Origin: Phapecoctavirus DIJ07P2
Reading direction: 5' to 3' (one strand)
Sequence record: OZ035771.1
DNA length: 64,000 nt
Shown: positions 10,707 through 63,936 of the stretch, in pieces
Layout of the letters: the number at the start of each line of letters is the position of its first letter
Numbering within the stretch: position 1 is the stretch's first letter
Made by a program: the position numbers and the translations under genes
Notes under the pieces: model-generated
Seen by the model: only the letters and a program-made list of their open reading frames with translations
Told to the model about the DNA's origin: nothing
Database searches by the model: none

Positions 10707-11126
10707 ATGAACATTAAATCAAATAATCCAGCTTACTCCTTCGATAACGCTTTTTGTCACGGTAGCGCCGCCAAAGGCTTCGAAATCGATGGTAAATTGG
10801 TTATCGTGAACGTTGACGGGGAAGAGGTTGCAGTGTATCCGGTAAACGATGTTAAAAGCCGTTTACAATGCCGCATGGATGTTACCGCATATCAGCTTGA
10901 TCCGGTCCGTGTAGTTGCCCTGGTATTAGAGGAAGAGATCAAAGCAATGCATCACAGTAATAAGTTTATTGGTGACGCGCAGGATAATATGAACGTTTGC
11001 CGCCATAAAGTTAATGAAGCATTGAAAGAATGCGGTTTTAAGGATCTGATGATTAAACGTGATGAAAAATTCCGCTTTCGTAATGACCTGGCAAACCGGA
11101 TCTACTCAATCTATGAAGCTTTATAA
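10707..11126 (+). CDS. hypothetical protein (139 aa)
   Basis: track ORF. Confidence 0.6.
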   Translation: MNIKSNNPAYSFDNAFCHGSAAKGFEIDGKLVIVNVDGEEVAVYPVNDVKSRLQCRMDVTAYQLDPVRVVALVLEEEIKAMHHSNKFIGDAQDNMNVCRHKVNEALKECGFKDLMIKRDEKFRFRNDLANRIYSIYEAL

Positions 11127-11139
11127 TCGACAACAAAAC

Positions 11140-11169
11140 AAGGGGCGCACAAAGCGCCCTTTCTTTTTG
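11140..11169 (+). terminator. rho-independent terminator (conserved type, copy 3)
   Basis: AAGGGGCGCACAAAGCGCCCTT followed by TCTTTTTG. Confidence 0.6.
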
Positions 11170-11199
11170 CCCGAACAATGTTGATAGCTTTCGCCTATG

Positions 11200-11680
11200 A
11201 AAAACCGACACAGAACAAAACTGAATAAATCGCGGTATCGAGCTAATCAACCAGCAAACGAATAACCATACCTCCCAGGGTTACAGGCTGTTAGAGAGCC
11301 ATTTAGAGCGGTTAAAATCGATCAACAACCAACAACAAACCATCAAAAACACCCTTTTACCTCCTTTCTAGTGCAATGATAACCATTATCATCTACCCAT
11401 GATTATCTATGCAATATAAGCGCATAATTATAATGTTGATAATAGTTCGCAACAACTAACCAACAAACAACATAAAACAATAAGCAAACTAATCATAATC
11501 AAAGGAATAATAGCAAGATGATTGATAACGACAAACAATCGAACCATGATGAATACTAAGCAAGATAACGATAACACGACAAAACAACCAACTAACGAAC
11601 AATAACAAACGAAACCATTAAAATAATAACTATTAGCAAAATAGTGCCTGAATGAAATCATTACAAAACGAATCATTCAC
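11200..11680. repeat. A+C-rich, strand-asymmetric low-complexity tract
   Basis: plus strand dominated by CAA/ACA/AAC repeats with very few G; no credible ORF. Confidence 0.5.
11372..11390. promoter_or_regulatory. Fur-box-like 19-mer
   Basis: TGCAATGATAACCATTATC; 3' 15 nt match Fur consensus at 14/15. Confidence 0.35.
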
Positions 11681-11699
11681 AGAGTCATCATTAGCACGC

Positions 11700-12060
11700 T
11701 ATGCCGGACACATAGCGAGCTAATAATAAGCCAACTACACCCCAACAATCATAACCATCGGTGACGGTTATTTCTTGTTACTGCGTAGCTTGCAATAATT
11801 GCAAGCGTAATGACGCTTACACTTATTGCGCTGGCTTATTATTAGCATTATATGTAATTACCAAGATCATAACATTAGCGCAATAACAATAGTCATTGTA
11901 ATAATTACATGAGTTATCACTATCGTTCAGTGTGATCATCATTAGCACAGTGAATAATTGCACGTAGCAACATGAGCGAATAGCGACAGGTTGCATAGTG
12001 TGCACATAGTGTATAAACATACAAGAAAATAAAGGCTAATCTTTTGGGGGCGAATACTAT
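11700..12060. repeat. cluster of palindromes and inverted repeats
   Basis: GCTAATAATAAGCC (11718) / GGCTTATTATTAGC (11838); CTTGCAAT-A-ATTGCAAG; AGCGT-AATG-ACGCT; ACAAT-AGTC-ATTGT; ATAGTGT direct repeat. Confidence 0.5.
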
Positions 12061-12150
12061 CGCGTAGCGATATGTTGAGCACCTTCTCTTAAACGTAAAT
12101 AAAATCAGAAAATTCTTGATTTATTTTAGTTTTTATGTTAATAAACGTTT

Positions 12151-12169
12151 AAATAATAATCATTCTCAT
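12151..12169. promoter_or_regulatory. Fur-box-like 19-mer
   Basis: AAATAATAATCATTCTCAT, 14/19 to Fur consensus. Confidence 0.3.
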
Positions 12170-12328
12170 ATAAATAATAGTCTGCTTGTCATGAGCGGGA
12201 TTAGTTGACAATGTTCCGTCATATGATGAAGTTGCCAAGCCATTGATAAATAAGTGTTTGTGTGATTTATAATCAGGTGGCCCACCTTGTCGCTATGTTG
12301 GCATGAGCCTTGCATAAGTCATTGAATA

Positions 12329-12350
12329 CGAATGATAATTATTCTCATTC
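12329..12350. promoter_or_regulatory. Fur-box-like palindrome
   Basis: CGAATGATAATTATTCTCATTC, near-perfect palindrome, 14/19 to Fur consensus. Confidence 0.35.
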
Positions 12351-12690
12351 GCATGATATTTGGGAATTGTCGCTGCGTGGACCTGACGGCCCGAAAATTC
12401 GCGTTAAGCACTTCTTACGTATACGCCATGATTTTTGCCATATGATATTGATTCTATTAGATATTCTTGCCATTATTGCCATGAAACATGGTGTCCCGAA
12501 ATAATCTCTCCCCGTAGATATTTTGGGTTACTTTTTATACAAGAGTGGGGTGTCAAAAATAATCAGTATATATGGGATAATTGATAGGAATCCCCTATGA
12601 TAATTCGATTGTAATTCCCTAAGATTGATCGTATGATGTTGGTGATTGATGATTGCCATGAAAGATGGCTAACGATGAGAGGAGATTGTC

Positions 12691-13065
12691 ATGCAAGAGA
12701 GTAAAAATGTTCCGTTGAGTAGTGCAACATTGCTTCGCTTCTATAAAGCATGGATTGCCAACTATCCTGCAATGAATCGCACAACGAGTGGCTTATGTGG
12801 TTGTCTGGTAGATTATGTAAATGATTTTGTTGGTGAGACAACTAGAGAAGAAGATAGAAGATGGCGGGATAGTTTGTTGGACCGTTTGAAATATGAAATG
12901 AGGAAACAATTTACATGTGCAGGGCTGGACTATAATCTTCCGTTCAATGCAGATTGCATGGATTACCTTTCAGAGTGTATAAACTTGGCGTGTCATACCA
13001 ACACGTTACGTCTTCAGTGGGTGAAAGACAGAATTGAAGATGCAAATAATGCTTGCATTGAATAA
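12691..13065 (+). CDS. hypothetical protein, paralog family A
   Basis: motifs GLCGCL and LRLQWVKDRIEDA shared with 13796, 16543 and 17800 genes. Confidence 0.55.
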   Translation: MQESKNVPLSSATLLRFYKAWIANYPAMNRTTSGLCGCLVDYVNDFVGETTREEDRRWRDSLLDRLKYEMRKQFTCAGLDYNLPFNADCMDYLSECINLACHTNTLRLQWVKDRIEDANNACIE

Positions 13066-13114
13066 AGATGTTTGTATAATGGATGACATAACAGATAGCC
13101 AATGAGGAGATGAA

Positions 13115-13324
13115 ATGAAGAATTTGAAAACTGTCACAATGTTCTTGACTAATCCTACACGTGTGCAAGCACTGGCTAAAGCCAGCCGTGTAGCTGTAGA
13201 ATTCCAAAACTTTAAGCCGTCCGTTGTGACAGGCAGTGAAACGTGTGTTATCGATTTCATTAACGAATACTTCCGAGGGAATCCGGTTGGTCGTTACTTT
13301 ATTAAGGGTCTGAAGGATGCATAA
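13115..13324 (+). CDS. hypothetical protein (69 aa)
   Basis: track ORF; GAGGAG RBS. Confidence 0.5.
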   Translation: MKNLKTVTMFLTNPTRVQALAKASRVAVEFQNFKPSVVTGSETCVIDFINEYFRGNPVGRYFIKGLKDA

Positions 13325-13547
13325 CATGAAACGCATGAAAATTCGTATTGAGAATGATGGTGGTTATAAAGGATTGGCACATGCAAAATTTCCACTTGTG
13401 TTGGAAGCTACGGTGGAATACAGTGGGCTTGCTCATGTGCGATTCTCGAAGATGATGGAAGTGCAGGAATGGTTTTGGGACGAGATAGATGCACGAGAAG
13501 GAGAAGATTATGTTTTCTTTCCTCACGAATATAACATTGTCTATTAA
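13317..13547 (+). CDS. hypothetical protein (76 aa)
   Basis: track ORF, overlapping start/stop. Confidence 0.5.
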   Translation: MHNMKRMKIRIENDGGYKGLAHAKFPLVLEATVEYSGLAHVRFSKMMEVQEWFWDEIDAREGEDYVFFPHEYNIVY

Positions 13548-13550
13548 AGG

Positions 13551-13799
13551 TTGTGTGCAATGATCACACCACAACAGAATGAAGCAGCAATGGATCTTCT
13601 TGATAGTTTGTATTTCGATAATTGGTACTCTGAATGTGAATGGATGAATATGCAAACTCTGAAAGAGAAGACAAAAGCGTTGATTACAGTAGATCAATTT
13701 CTTGCAGAGACGGAAAGAATGAATTATGATATGGCATCTCGCGCACGACGCGTTTCCATTTTCAATAAAATGTTAGCATTATGGGGAGGTAGAAAATGA
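13551..13799 (+). CDS. hypothetical protein (82 aa)
   Basis: track ORF. Confidence 0.5.
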   Translation: MCAMITPQQNEAAMDLLDSLYFDNWYSECEWMNMQTLKEKTKALITVDQFLAETERMNYDMASRARRVSIFNKMLALWGGRK

Positions 13800-14023
13800 G
13801 ACAATTCACTATACTGGAAGCACATGTGCAATGTGTTGCAGATTATGTCAAAGAACATTCAAGTTTGTTGGATGTAACCTGTGCAGTGCAAAATGATGTA
13901 GGTATTGTCTGTGTGCAACATATCCTATCTGAAACTCGTTACGAAGTATTCCGTGCTACCTTGTTTGGATGTGATCGTGTGAACTGGGTAAAAGAACGTG
14001 TAGCAGAAGAAATAATTGGTTGA
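13796..14023 (+). CDS. hypothetical protein, paralog family A (short form)
   Basis: C-terminal CDRVNWVKERVAEE motif. Confidence 0.5.
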   Translation: MRQFTILEAHVQCVADYVKEHSSLLDVTCAVQNDVGIVCVQHILSETRYEVFRATLFGCDRVNWVKERVAEEIIG

Positions 14024-14077
14024 CAGAAGGATCTGTCTTTGTCATAATCATCTCATCGAAACAGAGAGGAGAAAATC

Positions 14078-14491
14078 ATGAAAAAGTTTATTTGCACCCG
14101 TTCCACTAACAGTGATATCCTTGTAGGTAAGGTTATCAAAGGAGAACTCTTCCATGCAAACGGTAAGAAATATATTCTGCTGAAAGATTCTTTCAACGGG
14201 GAATATCCGCGCTGCACTTTCTTCAATTACAACACTCCATTTGCTTTAGAAGGAGATGCTTGGGAATGGGCTGAACTCAATCCTTGTTGTGAGGAAGAAG
14301 AATCTATGTTCTTAGGTTTAAACGTTTACCGTGTAGATTACACCATGTGCGGAGCGGAACATTCTGTTCGCGTAGAAGCCGAATCCAAACTACAAGCACC
14401 TTTCAAGGCAGGATTGACTTTGGGTCATTGTTTGGCAAACATTGAAGATGTTGTGATCCAAAGAGTTGTTTTAGAGAAAGAGGCTATTTGA
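14078..14491 (+). CDS. hypothetical protein (137 aa)
   Basis: track ORF; GAGAGGAG RBS. Confidence 0.55.
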   Translation: MKKFICTRSTNSDILVGKVIKGELFHANGKKYILLKDSFNGEYPRCTFFNYNTPFALEGDAWEWAELNPCCEEEESMFLGLNVYRVDYTMCGAEHSVRVEAESKLQAPFKAGLTLGHCLANIEDVVIQRVVLEKEAI

Positions 14492-14545
14492 CAGAAGACG
14501 GTACAATATTTAAAATATAAAGATTAACCACAAAAGGAGAGAAAC

Positions 14546-14845
14546 ATGCAAGTTGAAGACCTGATCAAGATTCTGAATAAAGCCAAAGAGAAGGGTGCTA
14601 TCAAAGACTGGAAACGTGAAACAAGTGAAGATTTATCTCATTGTTGTCGAGAATTTTACATTGAAGGTATTGCTAACGATCATTATACTATTGAATGGTA
14701 TATTAACTTAATGACTCTTAAACACGGTTCATTTGAGGTTTGGTTTGATGACATTGATGTAAATGGTTTTCATCCTGGCTATAAAATCGCTATGCAGTTA
14801 TCTTATCGTAGAGAAGTTGTAGCACATTTGGGTTTACATAACTAA
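14546..14845 (+). CDS. hypothetical protein (99 aa)
   Basis: track ORF; AAAGGAGAG RBS. Confidence 0.55.
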   Translation: MQVEDLIKILNKAKEKGAIKDWKRETSEDLSHCCREFYIEGIANDHYTIEWYINLMTLKHGSFEVWFDDIDVNGFHPGYKIAMQLSYRREVVAHLGLHN

Positions 14846-14855
14846 GGAGAAAAGA

Positions 14856-15179
14856 ATGCAAGCAGTTGTTAACGAAGCTATTATGAACTTATCCTTCTTG
14901 TTAGCTGGTTTAGGAGGTGTTCTCATAGGTTTGGCTCTTATCTGGTGTATTCGTCGATTAATCGGGTACCGACAAAAAGGTGTTTCATGTTTTGTATCTT
15001 ACAATTTTACAACTGCTTACAGCAATGAGGTTGGATCTGGTAATGCTCAAGCATTTTTACCAACATATCCTCCTACGGTGGAGGATATTCGAAACTTGGA
15101 AGTAGAACTTATGGGACTAAGTGATAACTATACATCTCTCGTTATTCAAAATATTTTTCGACTAAAACAGGAGGCGTGA
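14856..15179 (+). CDS. membrane protein (107 aa)
   Basis: TM helix LSFLLAGLGGVLIGLALIWCI. Confidence 0.5.
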   Translation: MQAVVNEAIMNLSFLLAGLGGVLIGLALIWCIRRLIGYRQKGVSCFVSYNFTTAYSNEVGSGNAQAFLPTYPPTVEDIRNLEVELMGLSDNYTSLVIQNIFRLKQEA

Positions 15180-15392
15180 ATGAAGGCACATTACCCTCAT
15201 CCCTTTGATCCTAAAAACAAAGCCGTAATTCTTCGTCAGTGGCAACGGGTTTGTCGTACTAAATGTCCAATTAATAGCCAACACAATGTGGACAAGGATT
15301 ATCTTGGGACATTTGTTGAATACACTTACATAGACAAAAACAAGCGTAAACAACATGTCGAGGAATACTGCTTAAAAGTAGAATGGCTGTAA
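15180..15392 (+). CDS. hypothetical protein (70 aa)
   Basis: track ORF, ATGA overlap with previous gene. Confidence 0.45.
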   Translation: MKAHYPHPFDPKNKAVILRQWQRVCRTKCPINSQHNVDKDYLGTFVEYTYIDKNKRKQHVEEYCLKVEWL

Positions 15393-15404
15393 ATAATAAA
15401 TACC

Positions 15405-15433
15405 TTGACAAGTGTTTATTCGTTTTGTAAAGT
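15405..15433 (+). promoter_or_regulatory. sigma70-like promoter upstream of recombinase
   Basis: TTGACA 15405, 17-nt spacer, TAAAGT. Confidence 0.4.
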
Positions 15434-15462
15434 GAGAATACAGCAATGGTTTAGGAGTGGTT

Positions 15463-16134
15463 ATGAAAAAGTTTGTTGTTTACAGTCGTCTTTCTAAACA
15501 GAAAAAAGGTGAGGCACAATATGGTATGGAGAGCCAAGAGAACGATATCCGTTACTTCTTAGACTCTGTGCCTGATGCTGAAGTTATTGGTCAATTTTCT
15601 GAATACTATTCGGGTAAGGGCGATTGGAAGCAACGTAAGGAACTGGTTAAAGCGGTTGAAATGTGTAAAGCTACCGGAGCAACTTTATTGGTAGCTAAAG
15701 TTGACCGCTTGGGTCGTAACAACGCATCCGTAGCAACTCTTCTAGAAATGATTGATGTTAAGATAGCCATCATGCCAGACGCAGATAAAATGGTTATACA
15801 GCTTCTGTCTGTTCTGGCTGAACAAGAAGTTAGAGGTATTGCTGATCGTATTAAAAAGGGTCTTGCTGTAGCAAAAAGCAAAGGTGTTTTATTAGGCAGT
15901 GCTAATCCTAAAACTGCTGCTGCACGTAGAAAAGGAAAAATGGAATACAATTCTGTTAAAGCAGACGCTTTTGCAGAGACATTTCGTGAACGCTTGGAGA
16001 TCCTTAGAGATTTAAATACACCTTACAAAACTATTGCTGAAAAATTCAATAGTAAGAAAATAGCAACAGCACGTGGTGGTAAATGGGATGCTAAAACTGT
16101 TTCTCGTTTGTGTGCCAGACTTAACATTAAATAG
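15463..16134 (+). CDS. serine recombinase (resolvase/invertase family)
   Basis: YSRLSK nucleophile context, VDRLGRN motif, VLAEQEVRGIADRIKKG helix; track ORF 15457 trimmed to ATG 15463 after AGGAG. Confidence 0.65.
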   Translation: MKKFVVYSRLSKQKKGEAQYGMESQENDIRYFLDSVPDAEVIGQFSEYYSGKGDWKQRKELVKAVEMCKATGATLLVAKVDRLGRNNASVATLLEMIDVKIAIMPDADKMVIQLLSVLAEQEVRGIADRIKKGLAVAKSKGVLLGSANPKTAAARRKGKMEYNSVKADAFAETFRERLEILRDLNTPYKTIAEKFNSKKIATARGGKWDAKTVSRLCARLNIK

Positions 16135-16142
16135 GAGAGGAT

Positions 16143-16565
16143 ATGAAACAAGAAAATGAATCTGTAGATCACTTAATCATGCTGTCAGCCCTTTTTGCCG
16201 GATGGGACGTATTTTTTGAAAATTTATTCAATTCTGCTACAGATGGTTCCGATTTTATGCGGCAGTTTAAACGACGAACTGTTGAGGACTATGCTTTCTA
16301 TTCAGGTCGGATTGAAAAAGGTTACGAAGATACAAATACAACACTCACCATTAAAGTTTTAGATGTGATGTTTAGTGTTATAGATGCTATCGACGAAAGT
16401 CTTCCGATCCTAGACAATTGTAATACGAAAGCCTATGTTTACAAAATAGCTCGTGCTTATGTGTCTGCAAACAGTTGTCTTCTTTCCACCCAGATTGCCG
16501 TGAACAATCTTGCCAACTTGTTTGACGAAGGAGAAACTTTTTATGACAATCGATTTGAAGTGTAA
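16143..16565 (+). CDS. hypothetical protein (140 aa)
   Basis: track ORF. Confidence 0.5.
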   Translation: MKQENESVDHLIMLSALFAGWDVFFENLFNSATDGSDFMRQFKRRTVEDYAFYSGRIEKGYEDTNTTLTIKVLDVMFSVIDAIDESLPILDNCNTKAYVYKIARAYVSANSCLLSTQIAVNNLANLFDEGETFYDNRFEV

Positions 16566-16908
16566 GAGGATTCTTTTAGATTTCTATAATAATTGGTTAG
16601 AACACCTCCGTCTCTTTCCAAGAGAAAGTGGTTACGCTGATGTTGGCTTATGCCGAGGTCTGCGTATGTATATAAGTGATGAATTTCGGGCCGAGCATTC
16701 TTTAGCATATTCTGTTTATGGTATGCAATTAGCCAGTTTTGAAAACGCTGGCTTAGATACAACTTTCCCATTTAACACAGCAAAATCTTTTGAGCAAGAG
16801 TGTAAGGAAAAACGTTGCATGTTTAATGAAAAACGTGTACAGTGGGTTAAGGATCGAGTTAAACAACTGGAACAAGAGTTGGATTTCTTTTATGACGAGG
16901 CAGAATAA
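16543..16908 (+). CDS. hypothetical protein, paralog family A
   Basis: GLCRGL and EKRVQWVKDRVKQLEQ motifs; track ORF 16510 trimmed to ATG 16543 (GAAGGAG RBS). Confidence 0.5.
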   Translation: MTIDLKCKRILLDFYNNWLEHLRLFPRESGYADVGLCRGLRMYISDEFRAEHSLAYSVYGMQLASFENAGLDTTFPFNTAKSFEQECKEKRCMFNEKRVQWVKDRVKQLEQELDFFYDEAE

Positions 16909-17180
16909 TGGATAGACAAACCTTAAAAACAATGGCAGATGCTACTAATTCCCCGTACTTTGAAAAAGTAAGTAAATTGGTAGTTCAAGCCGCAGAGGAA
17001 GGATATTATAACATAAACATCCACAACCCAAATCTTATACTAGAAATGCCAAGTGATAAGAAGATACAAGAGAGTATCTGTGAAGGTATTGTTAGTTACT
17101 GGCGCGAGCGTGGGTGTGGTGCAAACATGGCTTTAGACAGTGCAAACATTGTAAGATATATAAATATTTCTTGGGGATGA
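16908..17180 (+). CDS. hypothetical protein (90 aa)
   Basis: track ORF. Confidence 0.5.
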   Translation: MDRQTLKTMADATNSPYFEKVSKLVVQAAEEGYYNINIHNPNLILEMPSDKKIQESICEGIVSYWRERGCGANMALDSANIVRYINISWG

Positions 17181-17184
17181 TTTT

Positions 17185-17796
17185 ATGATTCAATGCACTC
17201 ATATCCAAATTACTTGGAGAGATGAACTTTACCATTTGGGACAATTTACTGTAGGGGAAACATACCTTGTCATTAAACATAATCCTAACATCGCAAACTT
17301 TGACAGGATGGTTCTTGTTGAGGACGATCTAGGTCAAACTTATTCTTTAGATCTAAAATATCCGTTTTCTTACGGCTACGATTGGATCGTTACTTTTGAA
17401 GACGTGGAGGAAAATAAAACAATGAACGAAAAAAATTCTTGGTATTATCGTTGTGAACTGCCGCCAGTAGGTGAAAAGGTTATCTTTGTTCCTGATTTGG
17501 AAAGATATTCTTGGGACAGTTCTTATTCTGTTCCTAAAGAAGGCACCGAAGTTGAAGTTATTGCACATCGCACAACTTCGCATGGTAACGATGTAGCAGT
17601 TGTTTTCTGGGATGATGAAGGCGCTGCTTGTGCAGGTGGCTTTGTTGCAGGTAATTTTGAACCGCTGCCAGATCCTTTGAAGGAGGCAATTTTAGGCGTA
17701 GCTTCTTTTGGACTCTCTTACACATCTGCACAAGAGATCGTAGAAGGTATTTTAAACGGTACCGTTCCAAACGAAATTTTTAAACAGATTAAATAA
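17185..17796 (+). CDS. hypothetical protein (203 aa)
   Basis: track ORF. Confidence 0.55.
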   Translation: MIQCTHIQITWRDELYHLGQFTVGETYLVIKHNPNIANFDRMVLVEDDLGQTYSLDLKYPFSYGYDWIVTFEDVEENKTMNEKNSWYYRCELPPVGEKVIFVPDLERYSWDSSYSVPKEGTEVEVIAHRTTSHGNDVAVVFWDDEGAACAGGFVAGNFEPLPDPLKEAILGVASFGLSYTSAQEIVEGILNGTVPNEIFKQIK

Positions 17797-17799
17797 TAG

Positions 17800-18208
17800 T
17801 TGCACCCCGTTCTGCGGGGTGTTATTGTATACGTAAAGGAGGCGCTAATGTATTACACTGAAGACTACATATTGTATAACTTTTTTAAAGGCTGGTTGAA
17901 ATGGGCTGAACAAGCTCCTGTCGGAGATTGTGTTTTTCCTTGGGATTCTCGTCAAGGTTTGTGTCGTTGTTTGGAAGATTGGCTTATAACCACAAACTAC
18001 AACTCAGAAACTAAGAAATCTACATCACAGAGACTAAAAAATGTTATTTGAAGAAGATGGTTTAGATCCGATTTATCCTTTCGGTGAGGAAAGTTTCCAC
18101 AATGGTCTTTTCCTTGGCACTCAACATTATGATAAAGATCGTGTAGATTGGGTAAAAGAAAAGGTAGCACAGTATGAATGGGGGTTAAGAATTATCACCG
18201 CTGGTTAG
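17800..18208 (+). pseudogene. paralog family A member split by a frameshift in an A6 run (or sequencing indel)
   Basis: GLCRCL motif in ORF 17800..18051, LDPIYPFGEE and DRVDWVKEKV motifs in the next frame (18041..18208); junction at CTAAAAAATG 18034-18043. Confidence 0.45.
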
Positions 18209-18378
18209 AAAGCTATCTTAAGAAATGCGAACTTGGTGTTCCAGGTTATACTTACGACACGGACGAGATTCTTGATGAAATGGAAGTTTGGTTTAAAGAG
18301 CCTCGTGAACTATTGGCAAATATTCTAATGGCTTGGGATGGTACGGCACAAAGCATCGAAGGAGGTAGAAATGAGTAA
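18178..18378 (+). CDS. hypothetical protein (66 aa; weak)
   Basis: track ORF overlapping the end of the frameshifted gene. Confidence 0.3.
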   Translation: MGVKNYHRWLESYLKKCELGVPGYTYDTDEILDEMEVWFKEPRELLANILMAWDGTAQSIEGGRNE

Positions 18379-18504
18379 GAAATTGTTTAATATTCGTGAG
18401 AATCGTGATGGATCGTTCTCTGTAGTCAATGAATTTAACGTTTCGGTTGGGACTTTTATTACTAAACGTCAAGCAGAACAAGTAAGAGATACTTTAAACA
18501 AGTA
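18370..18504 (+). CDS. hypothetical micro-protein (44 aa)
   Basis: ATG after GGAGGTAGAA; below track cutoff. Confidence 0.4.
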
Positions 18505-18522
18505 AGTTTTTAAGGGGGACTT

Positions 18523-18942
18523 ATGTTAGGTAAGATCAAAGCTTTTTTCAAACGTGTTATTGAAGGAAGTCCAACAGAAGGTGCATTAGGAAGATCCCTA
18601 ACAGGAGAACCACTTGCCATAATTTCTATCAGTCGGCATGGTGGATATTCCATTCGACAAACACCTTTAGGTATAAAAGGTAGTATGCTTTCTTGGACAA
18701 TATCTCAAGTTGGTGATAACAGGCTTGCAGCTATAGCATTGCTTCGTGGGGAGTATGACTATTGTTTATCAGCATCTTGTAAAAAGCACCTTATAGAGCA
18801 CATTAGAGACAGAGTAGAAAGAGAAGGCGGATACTTCTTCGAAACTAAGAGAAACCAACAAGGGACTCTTGACTTCACTAAGGTTTACTGGGACAATCAT
18901 ACTCGTCAAACTGTTGAACAAATTCTGGAGGAAAGATGTTAA
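18523..18942 (+). CDS. hypothetical protein (139 aa)
   Basis: track ORF; AAGGGGGA RBS. Confidence 0.55.
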   Translation: MLGKIKAFFKRVIEGSPTEGALGRSLTGEPLAIISISRHGGYSIRQTPLGIKGSMLSWTISQVGDNRLAAIALLRGEYDYCLSASCKKHLIEHIRDRVEREGGYFFETKRNQQGTLDFTKVYWDNHTRQTVEQILEERC

Positions 18943-19145
18943 AAGCTTTTGCTATATACTCTACTGTAGGATTCTTTTATTGGATTATAGTTATTGTTGG
19001 ATGTTGGTTAGGTTCTTGTGTTGTAATGGGAGAATGGTTAACATACAATGTATTTGAATGGGATGTAGTTTGTAGATCATTACTTGTTATATGGACTGTT
19101 ATTGTTTGTTGGATAACTGTTAGTCTAACATTGGATCTATACTGA
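18936..19145 (+). CDS. small membrane protein (69 aa)
   Basis: two hydrophobic helices, Cys/Trp-rich. Confidence 0.45.
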   Translation: MLKAFAIYSTVGFFYWIIVIVGCWLGSCVVMGEWLTYNVFEWDVVCRSLLVIWTVIVCWITVSLTLDLY

Positions 19146-21976: not shown

Positions 21977-22258
21977 ATGGAACTCGTTCAAGAACTGTAT
22001 AATGCTTTAGGAGCAAAAGGAAAAGATTGGCCCGAACATGCGCTTATTGCTATAAGAGACTCCGATGGTGAGATTAAGTTTTCAAGCGTAAGTAAAGAGC
22101 ACATTGTACAAACAAAACTGGGTATTTATATGCGTGGAACTTATTGCTTATTCAACACCAGAATGGTAGAAGCCCCTGTTATCGAGGATGGAACAAAAGG
22201 TTGCCCCACAATCGTAACAAAAGCTGAATATGAGAAGTTTTTCTACGCTAAGGCTTGA
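21977..22258 (+). CDS. hypothetical protein (93 aa)
   Basis: track ORF; AAGGAGG RBS. Confidence 0.55.
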   Translation: MELVQELYNALGAKGKDWPEHALIAIRDSDGEIKFSSVSKEHIVQTKLGIYMRGTYCLFNTRMVEAPVIEDGTKGCPTIVTKAEYEKFFYAKA

Positions 22259-22302
22259 CACAGAAACAATACTATAGGATAGTGATTCTATCGTAGCAAT
22301 AG

Positions 22303-22325
22303 AACCCGCTTCGGCGGGTTTTTTC
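22303..22325 (+). terminator. rho-independent terminator
   Basis: AACCCGC-ttcg-GCGGGTT followed by TTTTT. Confidence 0.7.
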
Positions 22326-22349
22326 ATATCTGTAGCAATAGGAGGTCGT

Positions 22350-22580
22350 GTGTTAAATAAAATCGAAGAAGGTTGTATGGCATTTTTGGTAGATAACCCG
22401 TTTCCGTTTATGGTTAAGATCCACATAGGAGAGTATTTAGGTAATGACGAATGGGATTGTAGTATCAATAGTGAAATGCACCACTACCAACCAACAATCC
22501 TTAAGACGGATCAAATGGCGCGTATTACAGTAGAGGATGAATTGATTATTGAGTTATACGAGAGAGCACTACACAAGTAA
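22350..22580 (+). CDS. hypothetical protein (76 aa; GTG start)
   Basis: track ORF; AGGAGG 4 nt upstream of GTG. Confidence 0.4.
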   Translation: MLNKIEEGCMAFLVDNPFPFMVKIHIGEYLGNDEWDCSINSEMHHYQPTILKTDQMARITVEDELIIELYERALHK

Positions 22581-22623
22581 GCTAGAACCCACCTAAATCA
22601 AACAGAGACGCTCTAAAATAGGA

Positions 22624-22650
22624 AAGGCACCCAAGTGGGTGCCTTTATTT
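22624..22650. terminator. bidirectional terminator between convergent modules
   Basis: AAGGCACCC-aagt-GGGTGCCTT with A-tract upstream and T-tract downstream. Confidence 0.65.
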
Positions 22651-22922
22651 TATTCTTCGTTAGATTGCGTTTCAGACGCGTTAAATTCGGTTTCAGTACA
22701 ACTTGCTAGGTAACTTATGTTTTGCATCACTACAACTACAGGTGTTTTAAGTTTATCTTCTAGCCCAGCAGCCACTTGAGCCAAGGCATTATCAATATTT
22801 GATTTCCTAACACCTGTTCCATGCCCTGTTGCCAAGTAAAGATTACCTTCCCCTTTTTGTGTAGCATTAGCAAAGTAGTAAACGTAATGTGCAAGGTAGT
22901 AATCACGGATTTCTTCAGTCAT
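22650..22922 (-). CDS. hypothetical protein (90 aa)
   Basis: track ORF. Confidence 0.45.
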   Translation of the reverse strand: MTEEIRDYYLAHYVYYFANATQKGEGNLYLATGHGTGVRKSNIDNALAQVAAGLEDKLKTPVVVVMQNISYLASCTETEFNASETQSNEE

Positions 22923-22965
22923 TTTATTCTCCTAATAAGAAAGGGGCCGAAGCCCCTTGAGTGGT

Positions 22966-23766
22966 TTATTTGTTTAAATGGTCTTCAACCATTTTGATAA
23001 AGCCTTCATCACTGAAGACTGTTCCTGCTTTCTCTCGGTAGACAAGCACTCCACGTTCTTCGTAGAGAGTTTGTTCTACAAAATTCAAACCTGGGTTAAC
23101 TACAACCATCTTAACCCCAATATTCAGGGCAGGGAAGAGTTCCCAGTTGAAGTTGATTACTTGGTTAGAGCAGCCTACAACGATAACCATATCTTGTGAT
23201 GTTAGTTGATCCAGTTTGTGATACATGTCTGTGTAGAGCGGTGCATTCTCACCAAAAAACACCACATTAGGCTTCACATATTTGTAATCGTCTACATCAA
23301 TAGCTGCGTAACCCACATCTTTGATAATTTTGTTATCAACAACAACTTCTGGCAAGAAACCATGAACGTGCAATATTTCTTCTCTATCGATTCCAGCGCG
23401 TTCTAATAGATCGTCAACGTTAGTAGTGATGTTAATAATCCTTTCTGCACCGTATTTTTCGAACCATTCTCCAATCTGAAGATGTGCTGGATTCGGGTCA
23501 ACTTTCTCTAATTCCACGCGACGTTTATTGTAGAAGTCGTGAGTTTTACGGTAGAGGTTATATCCTTCCACATCTAAGCCACCCATAGCATCAGGAATAC
23601 CCTGTTCTTGCTGATAACCGGCACGGAAGTTGAAAATGTCACAAACCTCAGAAAGATCATAAGAAGACCATAACGCCTCCCCTGAAGAAGTATCTGTTCT
23701 AAAAGCTGGGATACCGCTATCCACAGATAGTCCTGCGCCAGTTATGAATATGACTCTACGCGGCAT
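22966..23766 (-). CDS. Sir2-family protein (no zinc ribbon)
   Basis: GAGLSVDSGIPAFR, TTNVDDL, HG, VVFFGE motifs; no CxxC...CxxC module. Confidence 0.7.
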   Translation of the reverse strand: MPRRVIFITGAGLSVDSGIPAFRTDTSSGEALWSSYDLSEVCDIFNFRAGYQQEQGIPDAMGGLDVEGYNLYRKTHDFYNKRRVELEKVDPNPAHLQIGEWFEKYGAERIINITTNVDDLLERAGIDREEILHVHGFLPEVVVDNKIIKDVGYAAIDVDDYKYVKPNVVFFGENAPLYTDMYHKLDQLTSQDMVIVVGCSNQVINFNWELFPALNIGVKMVVVNPGLNFVEQTLYEERGVLVYREKAGTVFSDEGFIKMVEDHLNK

Positions 23767-61423: not shown

Positions 61424-61498
61424 GGCCCTGTAGCTCAATGGGAGAGCTGTCGGCTCATAACCGATAGGTAGCTGGATCGAAACCAGCCAGGGCCACCA
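61424..61498 (+). tRNA. tRNA-Met (CAT) or Ile2
   Basis: acceptor GGCCCTG/CAGGGCC, anticodon loop CTCATAA, T-arm GCTGG-ATCGAAA-CCAGC, A73, CCA encoded. Confidence 0.75.
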
Positions 61499-61500
61499 AC

Positions 61501-61575
61501 GTCTTTATGGTGTAATGGATAGCACAGGAGTCTTCTAAACTCTTAGTCAAGGTTCGATTCCTTGTAAAGACACCA
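61501..61575 (+). tRNA. tRNA-Arg (TCT)
   Basis: acceptor GTCTTTA/TAAAGAC, anticodon loop CTTCTAA, T-loop TTCGATT. Confidence 0.75.
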
Positions 61576-61771
61576 GAACATTTTAACATGAATTAGCTCA
61601 AGTGATTTGAACCCACTACTGATCATGGTGGCAGAGAATGAGGCAAGTATGTCAGACATTATAAACAAAGGCCACGGTTATATTAGAAGACATAAATGCT
61701 CGAAGAGCACTGTTCGTGGAGAACGGGGGTTGGTGGAGTCACCATTCATGGTAAAATGTTTTAAAAAACTA

Positions 61772-61800
61772 TTGACAACAAGCATTATTTTATGTTAGAT
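61772..61800 (+). promoter_or_regulatory. sigma70-like promoter for downstream tRNAs
   Basis: TTGACA 61772, 17-nt spacer, TTAGAT. Confidence 0.45.
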
Positions 61801-61809
61801 TATAAGTAT

Positions 61810-61900
61810 GGAAGGGCAAATCGACGTGGCGACGAAAACGGTCTTGAAAACCGCCGAGCTTGAAAGAGCCTTGGGAGTTCGACTCTCCCTCCTTCCGCCA
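61810..61900 (+). tRNA. tRNA-Ser (TGA)
   Basis: anticodon arm CGGTCTTGAAAACCG identical to enterobacterial tRNA-Ser(UGA); long variable arm; T-arm GGGAG-TTCGACT-CTCCC. Confidence 0.75.
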
Positions 61901-61905
61901 GATTA

Positions 61906-61991
61906 GGTAGATTGGTGAAATGGTAGCCACGACAGTTTGCTAAACTGTAGTCGGAAACGGCGTGTAGGTTCGAGTCCTACATCTACCGCCA
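61906..61991 (+). tRNA. tRNA-Ser (GCT)
   Basis: acceptor GGTAGAT/ATCTACC, anticodon loop TTGCTAA, long variable arm. Confidence 0.7.
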
Positions 61992-62121
61992 AGTTCTTTT
62001 TAATGTAGCTTACTTTAGCAGAGTAAATCTTCGGCAAGTGGCGGTAACCACTTTACCGATAACTCATAGTTAGTGGTGTGAACACTGGCTATTTTAAAAA
62101 GAATTTAAATATTAGTATTTA

Positions 62122-62209
62122 GGTGAGTTAATTCCGTAGGGGTAGCGGGGCAGACTGTAAATCTGTTATCATTGCGATTCGGGTGGTTCGACTCCATCAC
62201 TCACCACCA
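62122..62209 (+). tRNA. tRNA-Tyr (GTA)
   Basis: acceptor GGTGAGT/ACTCACC, anticodon arm GCAGA-CTGTAAA-TCTGT, long variable arm, A73. Confidence 0.7.
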
Positions 62210-62215
62210 AATTAA

Positions 62216-62301
62216 GATGAGTTGGCTGAATGGTTTAAGCGGCGGACTGTTAATCCGTGTTCGAAAGAACAATATAGGTTCGAATCCTATACTCATCGCC
62301 A
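62216..62301 (+). tRNA. type-II tRNA with Asn anticodon GTT
   Basis: acceptor GATGAGT/ACTCATC, anticodon arm GCGGA-CTGTTAA-TCCGT, 15-nt variable region, G73. Confidence 0.55.
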
Positions 62302-62308
62302 GAATTAT

Positions 62309-62385
62309 GGACTTGTAGAGTTAAGGTAAACCCCCAGTCGCCAATAGGCTTCTGGAATTGCAGGTATCGAATCCTGCCGAGTCCC
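62309..62385 (+). ncRNA. tRNA-like element without canonical anticodon arm
   Basis: acceptor-like GGACTTG/CGAGTCC and T-arm GCAGG-TATCGAAT-CCTGC, but no 5-7-5 anticodon stem-loop and no encoded CCA. Confidence 0.3.
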
Positions 62386-62391
62386 AGCATT

Positions 62392-62466
62392 GCTCCTATA
62401 GTATAATGGCTATTACAACGGTTTTGTAATCCGTGGATCTCTGTTCGATTCAGTGTGGGAGCACCA
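62392..62466 (+). tRNA. tRNA-Thr (TGT)
   Basis: acceptor GCTCCTA/TGGGAGC, anticodon loop TTTGTAA, T-loop TTCGATT, A73. Confidence 0.7.
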
Positions 62467-62741
62467 ACACAACATTAAGAGCACTGTGATTGATCGTCGT
62501 ATCCTGTGCACAAGGTCTGCTCGAAAGACAGTGTTCTTAGTATTGTGTTGATCACAAAAAGAGTCACCCGAAACTTGACCGGAGTAGGGTTGGATGGGGC
62601 AAAATGAGAAGCGGCTCTCCCATCGACAGCAACGAAGAATAATATTTGACTTTGGTTTTGTATTATTTTAAGTTAGCTTACCGAACGTAGGGCTAGTCAC
62701 CCAAAGGGATACTCGTCACTGTCCCACCTATTAAATAACTA

Positions 62742-62771
62742 TTGACATTCGATAGTAAAATGTAGTATAGT
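62742..62771 (+). promoter_or_regulatory. sigma70-like promoter for downstream tRNAs
   Basis: TTGACA 62742, 18-nt spacer, TATAGT. Confidence 0.45.
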
Positions 62772-62788
62772 AAATATATATATACAAA

Positions 62789-62865
62789 GCGTTATTAGTG
62801 TTAGCGGTTCAGCATCCCGTCCTTCCAAGTCGGTGGCATCGGTTCGAATCCGATATAACGCTCCA
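62789..62865 (+). tRNA. tRNA-Gly (TCC)
   Basis: acceptor GCGTTAT/ATAACGC, anticodon loop CTTCCAA, T-arm ATCGG-TTCGAAT-CCGAT, U73. Confidence 0.7.
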
Positions 62866-62963
62866 AATTATTTAATAAAGGGTTGCCAGAAAACTTTCTC
62901 TTTTACTAATGGTTTTCTCTTTCTCTCACACCTCTTCTGGTTGCCCTTCATTAAATGATTTAT

Positions 62964-63039
62964 TGGTTTGTAGTGTAGTCCGGTAGCACACGACACTTTG
63001 ACTGTCGTAGGTTTGGTTCAAATCCAGACAGACCAGCCA
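62964..63039 (+). tRNA. tRNA-Gln (TTG)
   Basis: anticodon arm CGACA-CTTTGAC-TGTCG, T-loop TTCAAAT, G73. Confidence 0.7.
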
Positions 63040-63083
63040 TATAACAAAGGTGAGTCACTACCTTAAGTGCGAAGTTAAAATAT

Positions 63084-63160
63084 ACAGCCTTTAGCTCAAC
63101 CTGGTAGAGTGCATCGTTTGGGGCGATGAAGTTAAAAGTTCGAATCTTTTAAGGCTGACC
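63084..63160 (+). tRNA. tRNA-Pro (TGG)
   Basis: C1:G72 acceptor CAGCCTT/AAGGCTG, anticodon arm CATCG-TTTGGGG-CGATG, T-loop TTCGAAT, A73. Confidence 0.75.
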
Positions 63161-63235
63161 AAATTACAATTCCATGCGTCTGACAAAAGGTTAGTCGGTA
63201 TAAGACGTGGGATTTAATACTTATAAGGAGGACTT

Positions 63236-63577
63236 ATGTATAAATGTAGCCATTGTGGTGAAGAAGATCCGCAAAAGTTCTACGGTCATAAGAAATCTAT
63301 TTGTGGTTATTGTCATAATAAGTATACAATAGACTTAGGACAACAGAAAAAGAAGTATGCTCGTGATAAGTTAGGTGGTAAGTGTGTTTCCTGCGGTTAC
63401 GATAAATATCAGGAAGCTTTAGATATACACCATCTTGATCCGACAATAAAAGACCGGAGTTTCGCATCCATGCGTGGGTGGTCGCTTAAGAGGATTGATA
63501 AAGAGATAGAGAACTGCATCTTACTATGTAAGAACTGTCATTCAGCTTTCCATTCTGGTCATGATATTACTTGGTAG
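63236..63577 (+). CDS. HNH endonuclease within tRNA cluster
   Basis: CSHCG...CGYCH...DIHHLDP...CKNCH; AAGGAGG RBS. Confidence 0.75.
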   Translation: MYKCSHCGEEDPQKFYGHKKSICGYCHNKYTIDLGQQKKKYARDKLGGKCVSCGYDKYQEALDIHHLDPTIKDRSFASMRGWSLKRIDKEIENCILLCKNCHSAFHSGHDITW

Positions 63578-63591
63578 TAATACTAATTAAA

Positions 63592-63665
63592 TGTTTCGTA
63601 GTTCAATGGTAGAACCCACGACTGATAATCGTGAGACACAAGTTCGATTCTTGTCGAAACAACCA
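63592..63665 (+). tRNA. tRNA-Ile (GAT)
   Basis: acceptor TGTTTCG/CGAAACA, anticodon arm CACGA-CTGATAA-TCGTG, T-loop TTCGATT, A73. Confidence 0.7.
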
Positions 63666-63667
63666 GT

Positions 63668-63737
63668 TTCCCGTTAGACTTACAGGATAAGAGATCCACA
63701 ATTTATTGTGACGCTGGTTCGAATCCAGCACGGGATA
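63668..63737 (+). ncRNA. tRNA-like element with degenerate anticodon arm
   Basis: T-arm GCTGG-TTCGAAT-CCAGC and acceptor-like TTCCCGT/ACGGGAT (1-72 mismatch), middle forms CACAA-ttta-TTGTG instead of an anticodon arm. Confidence 0.3.
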
Positions 63738-63742
63738 CATAA

Positions 63743-63821
63743 TAGCGGGATAGAGGAGTCTGGTCGTCCTCGCCAGTTTCATATGCTGGAGATCATTGGT
63801 TCAAATCCAATTCCCGCCTCC
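63743..63821 (+). tRNA. tRNA with CAT anticodon (second Met/Ile2-type)
   Basis: anticodon arm CCAGT-TTCATAT-GCTGG, T-arm ATTGG-TTCAAAT-CCAAT, A1-C72 mismatch, U73. Confidence 0.6.
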
Positions 63822-63936
63822 AAATATCGCTTGCCAGCGGTATCTTTGAAGACCTTGCCTGGTTCCTTCTAAGATGGAGGGGTGCGACTCCTTAACGCAC
63901 AATCATAATAAAACATTTCAAATTAACAGTATTTAT

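What the first reader, a model, noticed from the sequence alone, without database searches (positions are those of the whole stretch)
12691..18208. Four-member paralog family with conserved GLCxCL and DRVxWVK(D/E)R(V/I) motifs
Genes at 12691-13065, 16543-16908 and 17800-18208 share a central G-L-C-x-(C/G)-L motif and a C-terminal hh(D/K)RVxWVK(D/E)R(I/V) motif (LRLQWVKDRIEDA, EKRVQWVKDRVKQLEQ, KDRVDWVKEKVAQYEW); 13796-14023 carries only the C-terminal motif (CDRVNWVKERVAEE). I do not recognise the family. Repeated diversified copies in one module suggest a protein under diversifying selection, such as a specificity or anti-defence factor.
Basis: seen in the sequence. Interest (0 to 1): 0.55.

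Follow-up and report, generated by a model that had tools for sequence, protein, structure and literature searches.

The report
Decaying paralogs of unknown early-phage domain
The four look-alike genes are real relatives: two are intact, one is frameshifted and one is a deletion scar, and all descend from a very widespread but uncharacterised small helical protein that phages of Proteobacteria encode among their early genes; its function is still unknown.

Summary
The window comes from a Phapecoctavirus-like E. coli myophage (~98% identical to EF1-1, ASO2A and REC). Gene 12691-13065 is intact, yet it is a recombinant of two tandem paralogs. Gene 16543-16908 is intact. The third gene starts at 17848, not 17800, and an extra A (A6 versus A5, 18036-18041) splits it into two ORFs. 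ORF 13796-14023 is an in-frame scar of a ~6.8 kb deletion that keeps only the last ~13 codons of a family member. Full relatives carry six copies.

The family is PHROG 2510, function unknown. It has more than 2000 clusters at 50% identity, often as tandem domains. It has no Pfam, NCBIfam or PADLOC model and no structural neighbour in the PDB. Members include phage N4 gp3, early-region genes of Mu-like prophages and nin-region genes of lambdoid prophages. The AlphaFold models (pLDDT 92-93) show a five-helix domain. One Cys and one Arg are conserved in essentially all 226 domains examined.

Orthologues of copies 2 and 3 are under purifying selection (pN/pS 0.07 and 0.10). Only the copy-1 locus shows mosaic alleles.

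Most likely role (inferred, not shown): a dispensable early host-interaction protein with a conserved Cys/Arg ligand or catalytic site.

The parts
12691..13065 (+). Copy 1: intact 124-aa family member. It is the first gene after a ~1.5 kb gene-less stretch and is a recombinant of a tandem paralog pair.
   Evidence: It matches PHROG 2510 at E = 1.9e-25. The AF2 model has pLDDT 93 and five helices. The upstream region and codons 1-11 (MQESKNVPLSS) match REC_00071, and the rest matches REC_00072. The crossover lies in the shared TTCCGTTGAGTAGT.
13796..14023 (+). 75-aa chimeric ORF formed by an in-frame ~6.8 kb deletion. The 5' part comes from a PHROG 14944 gene (153 aa in relatives). The 3' tail comes from a family member of the ASO2A_043 type.
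   Evidence: Residues 1-63 match PHROG 14944 at E = 1.4e-34. The DNA alignment to phAPEC8_0023 and ASO2A_043 shows the two parents. None of 50,697 phage records spans the junction.
13965..13980 (.). Deletion junction: the microhomology TTGGATGTGATCGTGT, present with 1-2 differences in both parental genes.
13981..14023 (+). The only family-derived sequence in the chimera: NWVKERVAEEIIG plus the stop codon.
   Evidence: The window from 13965 on is 96% identical at DNA level (93 of 97 aligned positions) to the 3' end of ASO2A_043 and the sequence downstream of it.
16543..16908 (+). Copy 2: intact 121-aa family member. It overlaps the upstream gene and abuts the downstream one.
   Evidence: It matches PHROG 2510 at E = 2.2e-26. 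The AF2 model has pLDDT 91.6 and five helices. It is identical to ASO2A_050. pN/pS is 0.067.
17848..18051 (+). Copy 3, N-terminal fragment (67 aa, includes GLCRCL). It ends early because of the frameshift.
   Evidence: HMM E = 6e-23
18036..18041 (+). A6 homopolymer. The one extra A relative to A5 in 11 relatives splits copy 3.
18041..18208 (+). Copy 3, C-terminal fragment (55 aa). It starts at the Met that is internal in the intact 112-aa protein, and it carries PFG and RVDWVKEKV.
   Evidence: HMM E = 5e-18
18180..18184 (+). G5 run (G4 in 10 of 11 relatives, G5 in AV125). It removes the normal stop of copy 3 and moves the start of the downstream gene 18178-18378.
17802..17822 (+). Terminator-like hairpin in front of copy 3. 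An AAGGAGG ribosome-binding site follows at 17836-17842.
   Evidence: annotated as a terminator in ASO2A

Best explanation
These genes are what remains, in this genome, of a six-copy paralogous family of an uncharacterised phage domain: about 105 residues, five helices, PHROG 2510.

State of the copies (shown). Copy 1 is a fusion of two tandem paralogs. Two copies and most of a third were removed by a ~6.8 kb deletion at a microhomology, leaving a 13-codon tail inside a chimeric ORF. Copy 2 is intact. Copy 3 is split by a +1 A in a homopolymer.

Role and mechanism (inferred). The proteins are dispensable accessory factors made early in infection. They probably act in the host cytoplasm through one conserved site at one end of the helical bundle. 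That site would be formed by the near-invariant Cys at the N-terminus of helix 2 (GLC), the invariant Arg and near-invariant Asn at the start of helix 5 (N-x-x-R-x-x-W-V), and the PF(N/G) loop. It would bind or chemically modify a ligand common to many Proteobacteria, either a small molecule or a conserved host protein. The variable stretch between helices 2 and 3 and the helix surfaces would differ between paralogs and tune what each copy does.
For: Identity and evolutionary state:
- PHROG 2510 matches and pairwise homology.
- Six copies in REC and in ASO2A.
- Deletion junction and microhomology.
- Tandem-pair recombinant.
- Frameshift unique among 12 genomes.

Early, accessory position:
- The module lies in the small-gene + strand block at the left of the genome.
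- Homologues include N4 gp3 in the N4 early region (HMM E = 1.8e-25).
- One homologue lies between Gam/gp11 and GemA/Mor in Mu-like prophages; Mu itself lacks it.
- Others lie in the nin region of lambdoid prophages next to DUF551 and downstream of a cI-like repressor gene.
- Copy number varies through deletion and fusion, which shows the copies are dispensable.

Conserved site:
- Over 226 domains, Cys is present in all but one, Arg, Pro and Phe round to 100%, Gly is 98%, Asn is 93% and Trp is 96-98%.
- These residues are kept in nearly every domain of the tandem two- and three-domain proteins; one second domain has Val for the Cys.
- In both AF2 models they sit at helix N-termini or in loops.
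- Columns 75, 84 and 90 covary.
- Purifying selection: pN/pS 0.07-0.10.
- The family is large (2070 clusters at 50% identity with E <= 1e-3) and spans phages of Escherichia, Rhizobium, Achromobacter, Burkholderia, Delftia and Erwinia.
Against:
- The conserved His is replaceable by Y, W, M or R, and is Met in copy 2. A classical Cys-His catalytic pair is therefore unlikely.
- An invariant Cys and Arg could be purely structural.
- Expression timing is inferred from gene position only.
- The frameshift could be a sequencing error rather than gene decay: only 6 isolated homopolymer indels were seen in ~39 kb aligned against REC.
Confidence: 0.45

Rival explanations
1. The copies are protein-binding inhibitors or specificity factors locked in an arms race with variable host defences, and each paralog diversifies under positive selection to track a different target.
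For: - Several copies per genome and tandem-domain proteins.
- Early-gene position.
- Mosaic, highly divergent alleles at the copy-1 locus.
- Easy loss of copies.
Against: - Orthologues of copies 2 and 3 are 96-99% identical across 64 genomes, with pN/pS 0.07-0.10.
- A near-invariant polar core (Cys, Arg, Asn) is shared from Rhizobium phages to coliphages, which is unusual for surfaces that track variable targets.
- The allelic diversity at copy 1 looks like recombination between pre-existing cassettes rather than point-mutation diversification.
Confidence: 0.2
2. The proteins are host-takeover adaptors. Each is a small helical protein that docks on a highly conserved host machine (RNA polymerase or sigma factor, replisome, division apparatus), in the manner of T4 AsiA or N4 gp8. 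The conserved residues form the docking surface.
For: - Small, all-helical, mildly acidic proteins (pI 4.7-5.3) encoded among the first genes of N4, Mu-like and rV5-like phages.
- Conservation across Proteobacteria would fit a conserved host target.
Against: - No fold similarity to any solved phage or host regulator complex.
- An essentially invariant Cys is atypical for a docking surface.
- Six paralogs per genome, and their dispensability, are hard to reconcile with a single essential takeover step.
Confidence: 0.15
3. The copies no longer do anything useful. They are decaying remnants of an old expansion, carried along in a gene-dense accessory region.
For: Within 5.5 kb of this one genome there is a fusion, a deletion scar and a frameshift.
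Against: - Strong purifying selection on orthologues.
- All 11 other genomes compared keep copy 3 free of the frameshift.
- More than 2000 sequence clusters retain the same core residues.
Confidence: 0.1
4. The shared motifs are a chance resemblance between unrelated small ORFs.
For: None found.
Against: - BLASTP E-values of 6e-12 to 3e-5 over the full length.
- A common PHROG.
- The same predicted five-helix topology in two copies.
- Motif counts of about zero in shuffled windows.
Confidence: 0.01

Closest known systems
PHROG 2510 (pVOG VOG7392 in depositors' notes): a catalogued phage protein family of unknown function
   Same: All three full-length copies match over their whole length at E = 1e-25 to 1e-27. 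The extra paralogs of relatives match at 1e-31 to 1e-32. Orthologues in ASO2A and nepoznato are labelled VOG7392.
   Different: The catalogue entry carries no function, fold or motif description. The 75-aa ORF belongs to PHROG 14944, not to this family.
Escherichia phage N4 gp3 (YP_950481, NC_008720 positions 1214-1528)
   Same: It has the same domain (family HMM E = 1.8e-25) with GLC, PFN and CHLNxxRxxW, and is the third gene of the N4 early region.
   Different: N4 has a single copy and belongs to a different virus family (Schitoviridae). To my knowledge, and in the literature searches run here, no function is reported for gp3.
Accessory early genes of temperate phages: the slot between gam/gp11 and gemA in Mu-like prophages, and nin-region genes next to DUF551 in lambdoid prophages
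   Same: Homologues P0040 and P0098 occupy these slots. The slots hold non-essential, exchangeable early genes.
   Different: Mu itself has unrelated genes (gp12-gp15) in that slot. In some prophages the domain is fused to long N- or C-terminal extensions.
Small helical phage counter-defence or takeover proteins (Acb2/Vs.4 nucleotide sponge, Ocr DNA mimic, AsiA). These were recalled from my own knowledge as leads only.
   Same: Similar size (~100 aa), helical, encoded early, widespread.

Membership tests
PHROG 2510 | Full-length match to the family profile | tested here: met
   E = 1.9e-25 (12691 gene), 2.2e-26 (16543 gene) and 6.1e-27 (intact ASO2A_053 orthologue of copy 3, one residue different from the repaired window protein). 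Not met for the 75-aa ORF, which matches PHROG 14944.
PHROG 2510 (signature derived here from 226 domains) | Five-helix, ~105-residue domain with GLC at the start of helix 2, a PF(N/G) loop, and N-x-x-R-x-x-W-V at the start of helix 5 | tested here: met
   The residues are present in all three long copies. The five-helix topology is predicted for copies 1 and 2 with pLDDT 93 and 91.6. Copy 3 was not modelled.
pVOG VOG7392 | Assignment by the pVOG profile | not testable with these tools
   No pVOG library is available here. Depositors' notes give VOG7392 for ASO2A_040 and _053 and for nepoznato_101 and _104.
Any Pfam, NCBIfam or PADLOC family | Score above the curated cut-off | tested here: not met
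   No hit reaches a cut-off for window copies, prophage homologues or fused proteins.
Papain-like or other Cys-His hydrolases | Invariant catalytic Cys plus invariant His | tested here: not met
   Cys is conserved in all but one of 226 domains, but His is only 80% conserved. It is replaced by Y, W, M, R and others, and is Met in the 16543 protein. The fold is all-alpha with no PDB match.
Zinc-binding anti-sigma (ZAS) domain | H-x3-C-x2-C zinc motif in a four-helix domain | tested here: not met
   The motif is absent from the alignments. There is no Pfam hit.
DNA-mimic anti-restriction proteins (Ocr, ArdA) | Strongly acidic protein with a DNA-like charge pattern and a matching fold | tested here: not met
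   pI is 4.7-5.3 for the window copies and the family median is 5.5. There is no fold match in the PDB.
Acb2/Vs.4-type cyclic-nucleotide sponges | Fold similarity to solved Acb2 structures | tested here: not met

The most novel reading that the evidence does not exclude
The domain is a new thiol-dependent enzyme or ligand-sensing fold that phages of alpha-, beta- and gammaproteobacteria deploy in the first minutes of infection. Members include N4 gp3 and genes of Mu-like and lambdoid prophages. It would be a previously unrecognised, very widespread counter-defence or host-takeover activity, with the Cys/Arg site acting on a conserved host metabolite or immune signal.
Probability: 0.2. Interest if true: 0.75.

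Novelty: new member of a known kind. Interest (0 to 1): 0.35.

Why it matters
The genes themselves are ordinary: near-identical copies are deposited as 'hypothetical protein' in dozens of Phapecoctavirus genomes. The family behind them is less ordinary.

- It is one of the larger unnamed pieces of phage 'dark matter', with more than 2000 clusters at 50% identity.
- It has no Pfam model and no structural neighbour.
- It has a confident predicted fold and a conserved Cys/Arg core.
- It sits in the early or accessory regions of model phages (N4, Mu-like, lambdoid) that are easy to manipulate.

That makes it a tractable target for functional discovery. The window also gives a compact example of how accessory paralogs are lost and reshuffled: a tandem-paralog fusion, a deletion at a microhomology that leaves an in-frame chimera, and a homopolymer frameshift.

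Tried and rejected
- Pfam, NCBIfam, PADLOC and a PDB sequence profile gave nothing above threshold.
- Domain fusions (Ea22-like N-termini, DUF551-type neighbours, tandem repeats) carry no annotated catalytic domain.
- Literature searches for the PHROG or pVOG ids, accession numbers, N4 gp3 and Phapecoctavirus transcriptomics found nothing on these genes.
- I checked whether the anti-defence gene bas54_0140 from the HIDEN-SEQ preprint (10.1101/2025.11.20.689424) could be a member. I did not find the Bas54 record. The presumed syntenic 20 kb of the related Vequintavirus Bas57 (genes 102-158) contains no family member.
- Programmed -1 frameshifting at A_AAA_AAT was rejected. The second ORF is in the +1 frame, which a -1 slip does not reach (reading of the sequence).
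- A Zn site or a Cys-His dyad was rejected because the second Cys (54%) and the His (80%) are not conserved.
- Rfam found no RNA family in 11000-19000.
Full report
**Source of the window.** The region 12600-18300 matches 178 phage records. The best are Phapecoctavirus genomes (Stephanstirmvirinae, ~150 kb E. coli myophages such as EF1-1, DE16, ASO2A and tuntematon) at ~98% identity. They match only from window position ~13965 onward. The stretch to the left, 11100-13980, matches a different and more distant part of the same genomes. Every gene in the module is annotated as hypothetical, apart from a serine recombinase (DNA invertase) and a small ORF that some depositors label a putative ABC-transporter ATP-binding protein.

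**Check of the observation.** A regex scan of all six frames finds the central motif GLCx[CG]L three times (12790, 16645, 17956). It finds the C-terminal motif R[VIL]xWV[KR][DE][RK][VI] four times (13009, 13976, 16834, 18140). All hits are on the + strand. The mean per shuffled window was 0.095 and 0.0. The three long proteins align end to end:
- 12691 versus 16543: E = 6e-12, 32% identity.
- 16543 versus the repaired 17848 protein: E = 2e-9, 31% identity.
- 12691 versus the repaired 17848 protein: E = 3e-5, 23% identity.

A family HMM run over a six-frame translation of the whole window finds these genes and nothing else. The resemblance is therefore real homology.

**Copy 3 is broken.** The listed ORFs are 17800-18051 and 18041-18208, in different frames. 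Relatives have one 339-nt gene (112 aa) that starts at the ATG corresponding to window 17848, five bases after AAGGAGG. In an alignment of 12 genomes, the window alone has A6 instead of A5 at 18036-18041. It shares G5 instead of G4 at 18180-18184 only with AV125.

The extra A ends the reading frame after 67 residues. The second ORF begins at the Met that is internal in the intact protein. The second ORF lies in the +1 frame, so a -1 slip on A_AAA_AAT would not restore the protein.

Against the closest relative, REC, there are only six isolated homopolymer indels in ~39 kb. The assembly is therefore not generally error-prone, and I cannot tell a real mutation from a rare sequencing error.

**The fourth 'member' is a deletion scar.** Residues 1-63 of ORF 13796-14023 match PHROG 14944 (E = 1.4e-34), a family whose profile is 153 positions long. 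DNA alignment shows two parents:
- The 5' part equals the start of phAPEC8_0023 / ASO2A_021.
- From 13965 on, the sequence equals the last codons of ASO2A_043, a family member, and the terminator region behind it.
- The two parents share the microhomology TTG(G/A)ATGT(G)GATCG(T/A)GT at the crossover.

Relative to ASO2A, about 6.8 kb is missing (record ~7958 to ~14789). This removes family members ASO2A_029 and ASO2A_040 and all but the tail of ASO2A_043. None of 50,697 phage records spans this junction, so it is private to this genome.

**Copy 1 is a recombinant.** REC, phAPEC8 and two metagenomic contigs carry two adjacent family genes here, of 114 aa and 122 aa. The window gene has the upstream region and first 11 codons of the first gene and the body of the second. 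They are joined inside the shared TTCCGTTGAGTAGT. This fused allele is common: ASO2A_017 has it, and cluster P0015 holds 198 sequences.

Alleles at this locus are mosaic. Compared with the window protein, the first 11 residues are identical, the middle is 32-42% identical, and the C-terminal part is 41-94% identical. The locus always follows a ~1.5 kb stretch without genes.

**Copy number.** REC and ASO2A each have six members. The window has two intact copies, one split copy and one 13-codon remnant.

**Selection.** Across 12 genomes, pN/pS is 0.067 for the 16543 gene and 0.10 for the 17848 gene. The four neighbouring genes range from 0.07 to 0.24. All 64 genomes that hold this segment are 96-99% identical. 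These two paralogs are conserved, not diversifying.

**The family.**
- All long copies fall in PHROG 2510, function unknown.
- There is no Pfam, NCBIfam, PADLOC or PDB-sequence match.
- A profile of 36 sequences finds 2070 clusters (50% identity) at E <= 1e-3 and 1206 at E <= 1e-10 among 1.84 billion representatives.
- Of 211 retrieved proteins that match the family profile, 21 have two tandem domains and one has three.
- tblastn finds members in 234 phage records: Escherichia, Achromobacter, Rhizobium, Salmonella, Klebsiella, Erwinia and Burkholderia phages, including N4 gp3 and phi92 gp010. N4 gp3 scores E = 1.8e-25 against the family HMM.
- In E. coli chromosomes one member lies in Mu-like prophages between Gam/gp11 and GemA/Mor; Mu itself has none.
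- Another lies in the nin region of lambdoid prophages next to a DUF551 gene. A third lies downstream of a cI-like repressor gene.
- All database names are 'hypothetical protein' or 'prophage protein', apart from two shorter cluster members labelled 'DUF551 domain-containing protein'.

Conservation over 226 domains:

| Residue | Conservation |
|---|---|
| Cys of GLC | all but one domain |
| Arg of RxxWV | rounds to 100% (one His) |
| Pro-Phe | rounds to 100% (one Ser, one Trp) |
| Gly of GLC | 98% |
| Asn three residues before the Arg | 93% |
| Two Trp | 96-98% |
| His before that Asn | 80%, otherwise Y, W, M, R |
| Second Cys | 54% |

The Cys, Arg and PF residues are retained in nearly every domain of the tandem proteins. 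Columns 75, 84 and 90 covary. In the models the conserved polar residues lie at the N-termini of helices 2 and 5 and in the two loops between helices 3, 4 and 5. This suggests one site at one end of the bundle. I could not measure distances because coordinates are not exposed. The proteins are mildly acidic (pI 4.7-5.3).

**Interpretation.** Shown: the family membership, the evolutionary state of each copy, the purifying selection and the family's distribution.

Inferred: early expression (from gene position in N4, Mu-like, lambdoid and rV5-like genomes), dispensability (from copy loss), and a functional Cys/Arg/Asn site that binds or modifies a ligand common to Proteobacteria.

I rate the identity statements at ~0.95, the 'early dispensable host-interaction factor' statement at ~0.6, and the specific Cys/Arg ligand or catalytic site at ~0.3. 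The rivals are an arms-race protein inhibitor, a docking adaptor for a conserved host machine, and functionless decay. They are weighed in the structured fields.

**Verdict.** This is a real paralog family that is correctly flagged as unrecognised. It is already catalogued (PHROG 2510 / VOG7392) and is present almost unchanged in many deposited genomes. The window adds no new kind of system. The value lies in the clarified anatomy and in pointing to a large, tractable, uncharacterised early-phage domain.

Noticed in passing
window 11163-12690: A ~1.5 kb stretch without any convincing ORF follows the terminator-like hairpin at 11140-11162 and precedes copy 1. It is 95-97% conserved and equally gene-less in ASO2A, phAPEC8 and two metagenomic contigs. 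The 10-12 kb bin that includes it has unusually high AT skew (0.19). No Rfam family matches. It contains a 20-nt direct repeat, AT(T/G)ATTGCCATGAAA(C/G)ATGG, at 12472 and 12649, with a -35-like TTGCCA. Its function is unknown.
   Followed up: partly
window 15457-16134 (+): A serine recombinase (Pfam Resolvase, E = 5e-18), annotated as DNA invertase in relatives, sits in the middle of the early small-gene module between the paralogs. No inverted target repeats were looked for.
   Followed up: no
window 18174-18378 (+): The G5 run at 18180-18184 disrupts the normal start of the downstream gene (ATGAATGGGGTT..., MNGVK...). The gene stays open from a new ATG at 18178 (MGVK...). Phage AV125 has the same G5, and its depositors did not call the downstream gene.
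   Followed up: partly
window 32974, 33168, 41797, 45500: These are four further single-base homopolymer length differences relative to phage REC. I did not check whether they fall in genes or shift frames.
   Followed up: no
window 61424-63822 (+): A cluster of 10 tRNA genes: Met, Arg, Ser, Asn, Thr, Gly, Gln, Pro, Ile, Met.
   Followed up: no
window ~22000-23000 and ~60000: GC skew changes sign at these points. This fits a switch from a + strand early block to a long - strand block and back.
   Followed up: no
L025 (phage REC) 19991-20791 and 32966-36244: The close relative annotates a Sir2-like protein and a four-gene dTDP-rhamnose pathway in the part of its genome that aligns to window ~23-40 kb. 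The alignment is interrupted around both sets of genes, and I did not check whether the window carries them.
   Followed up: no
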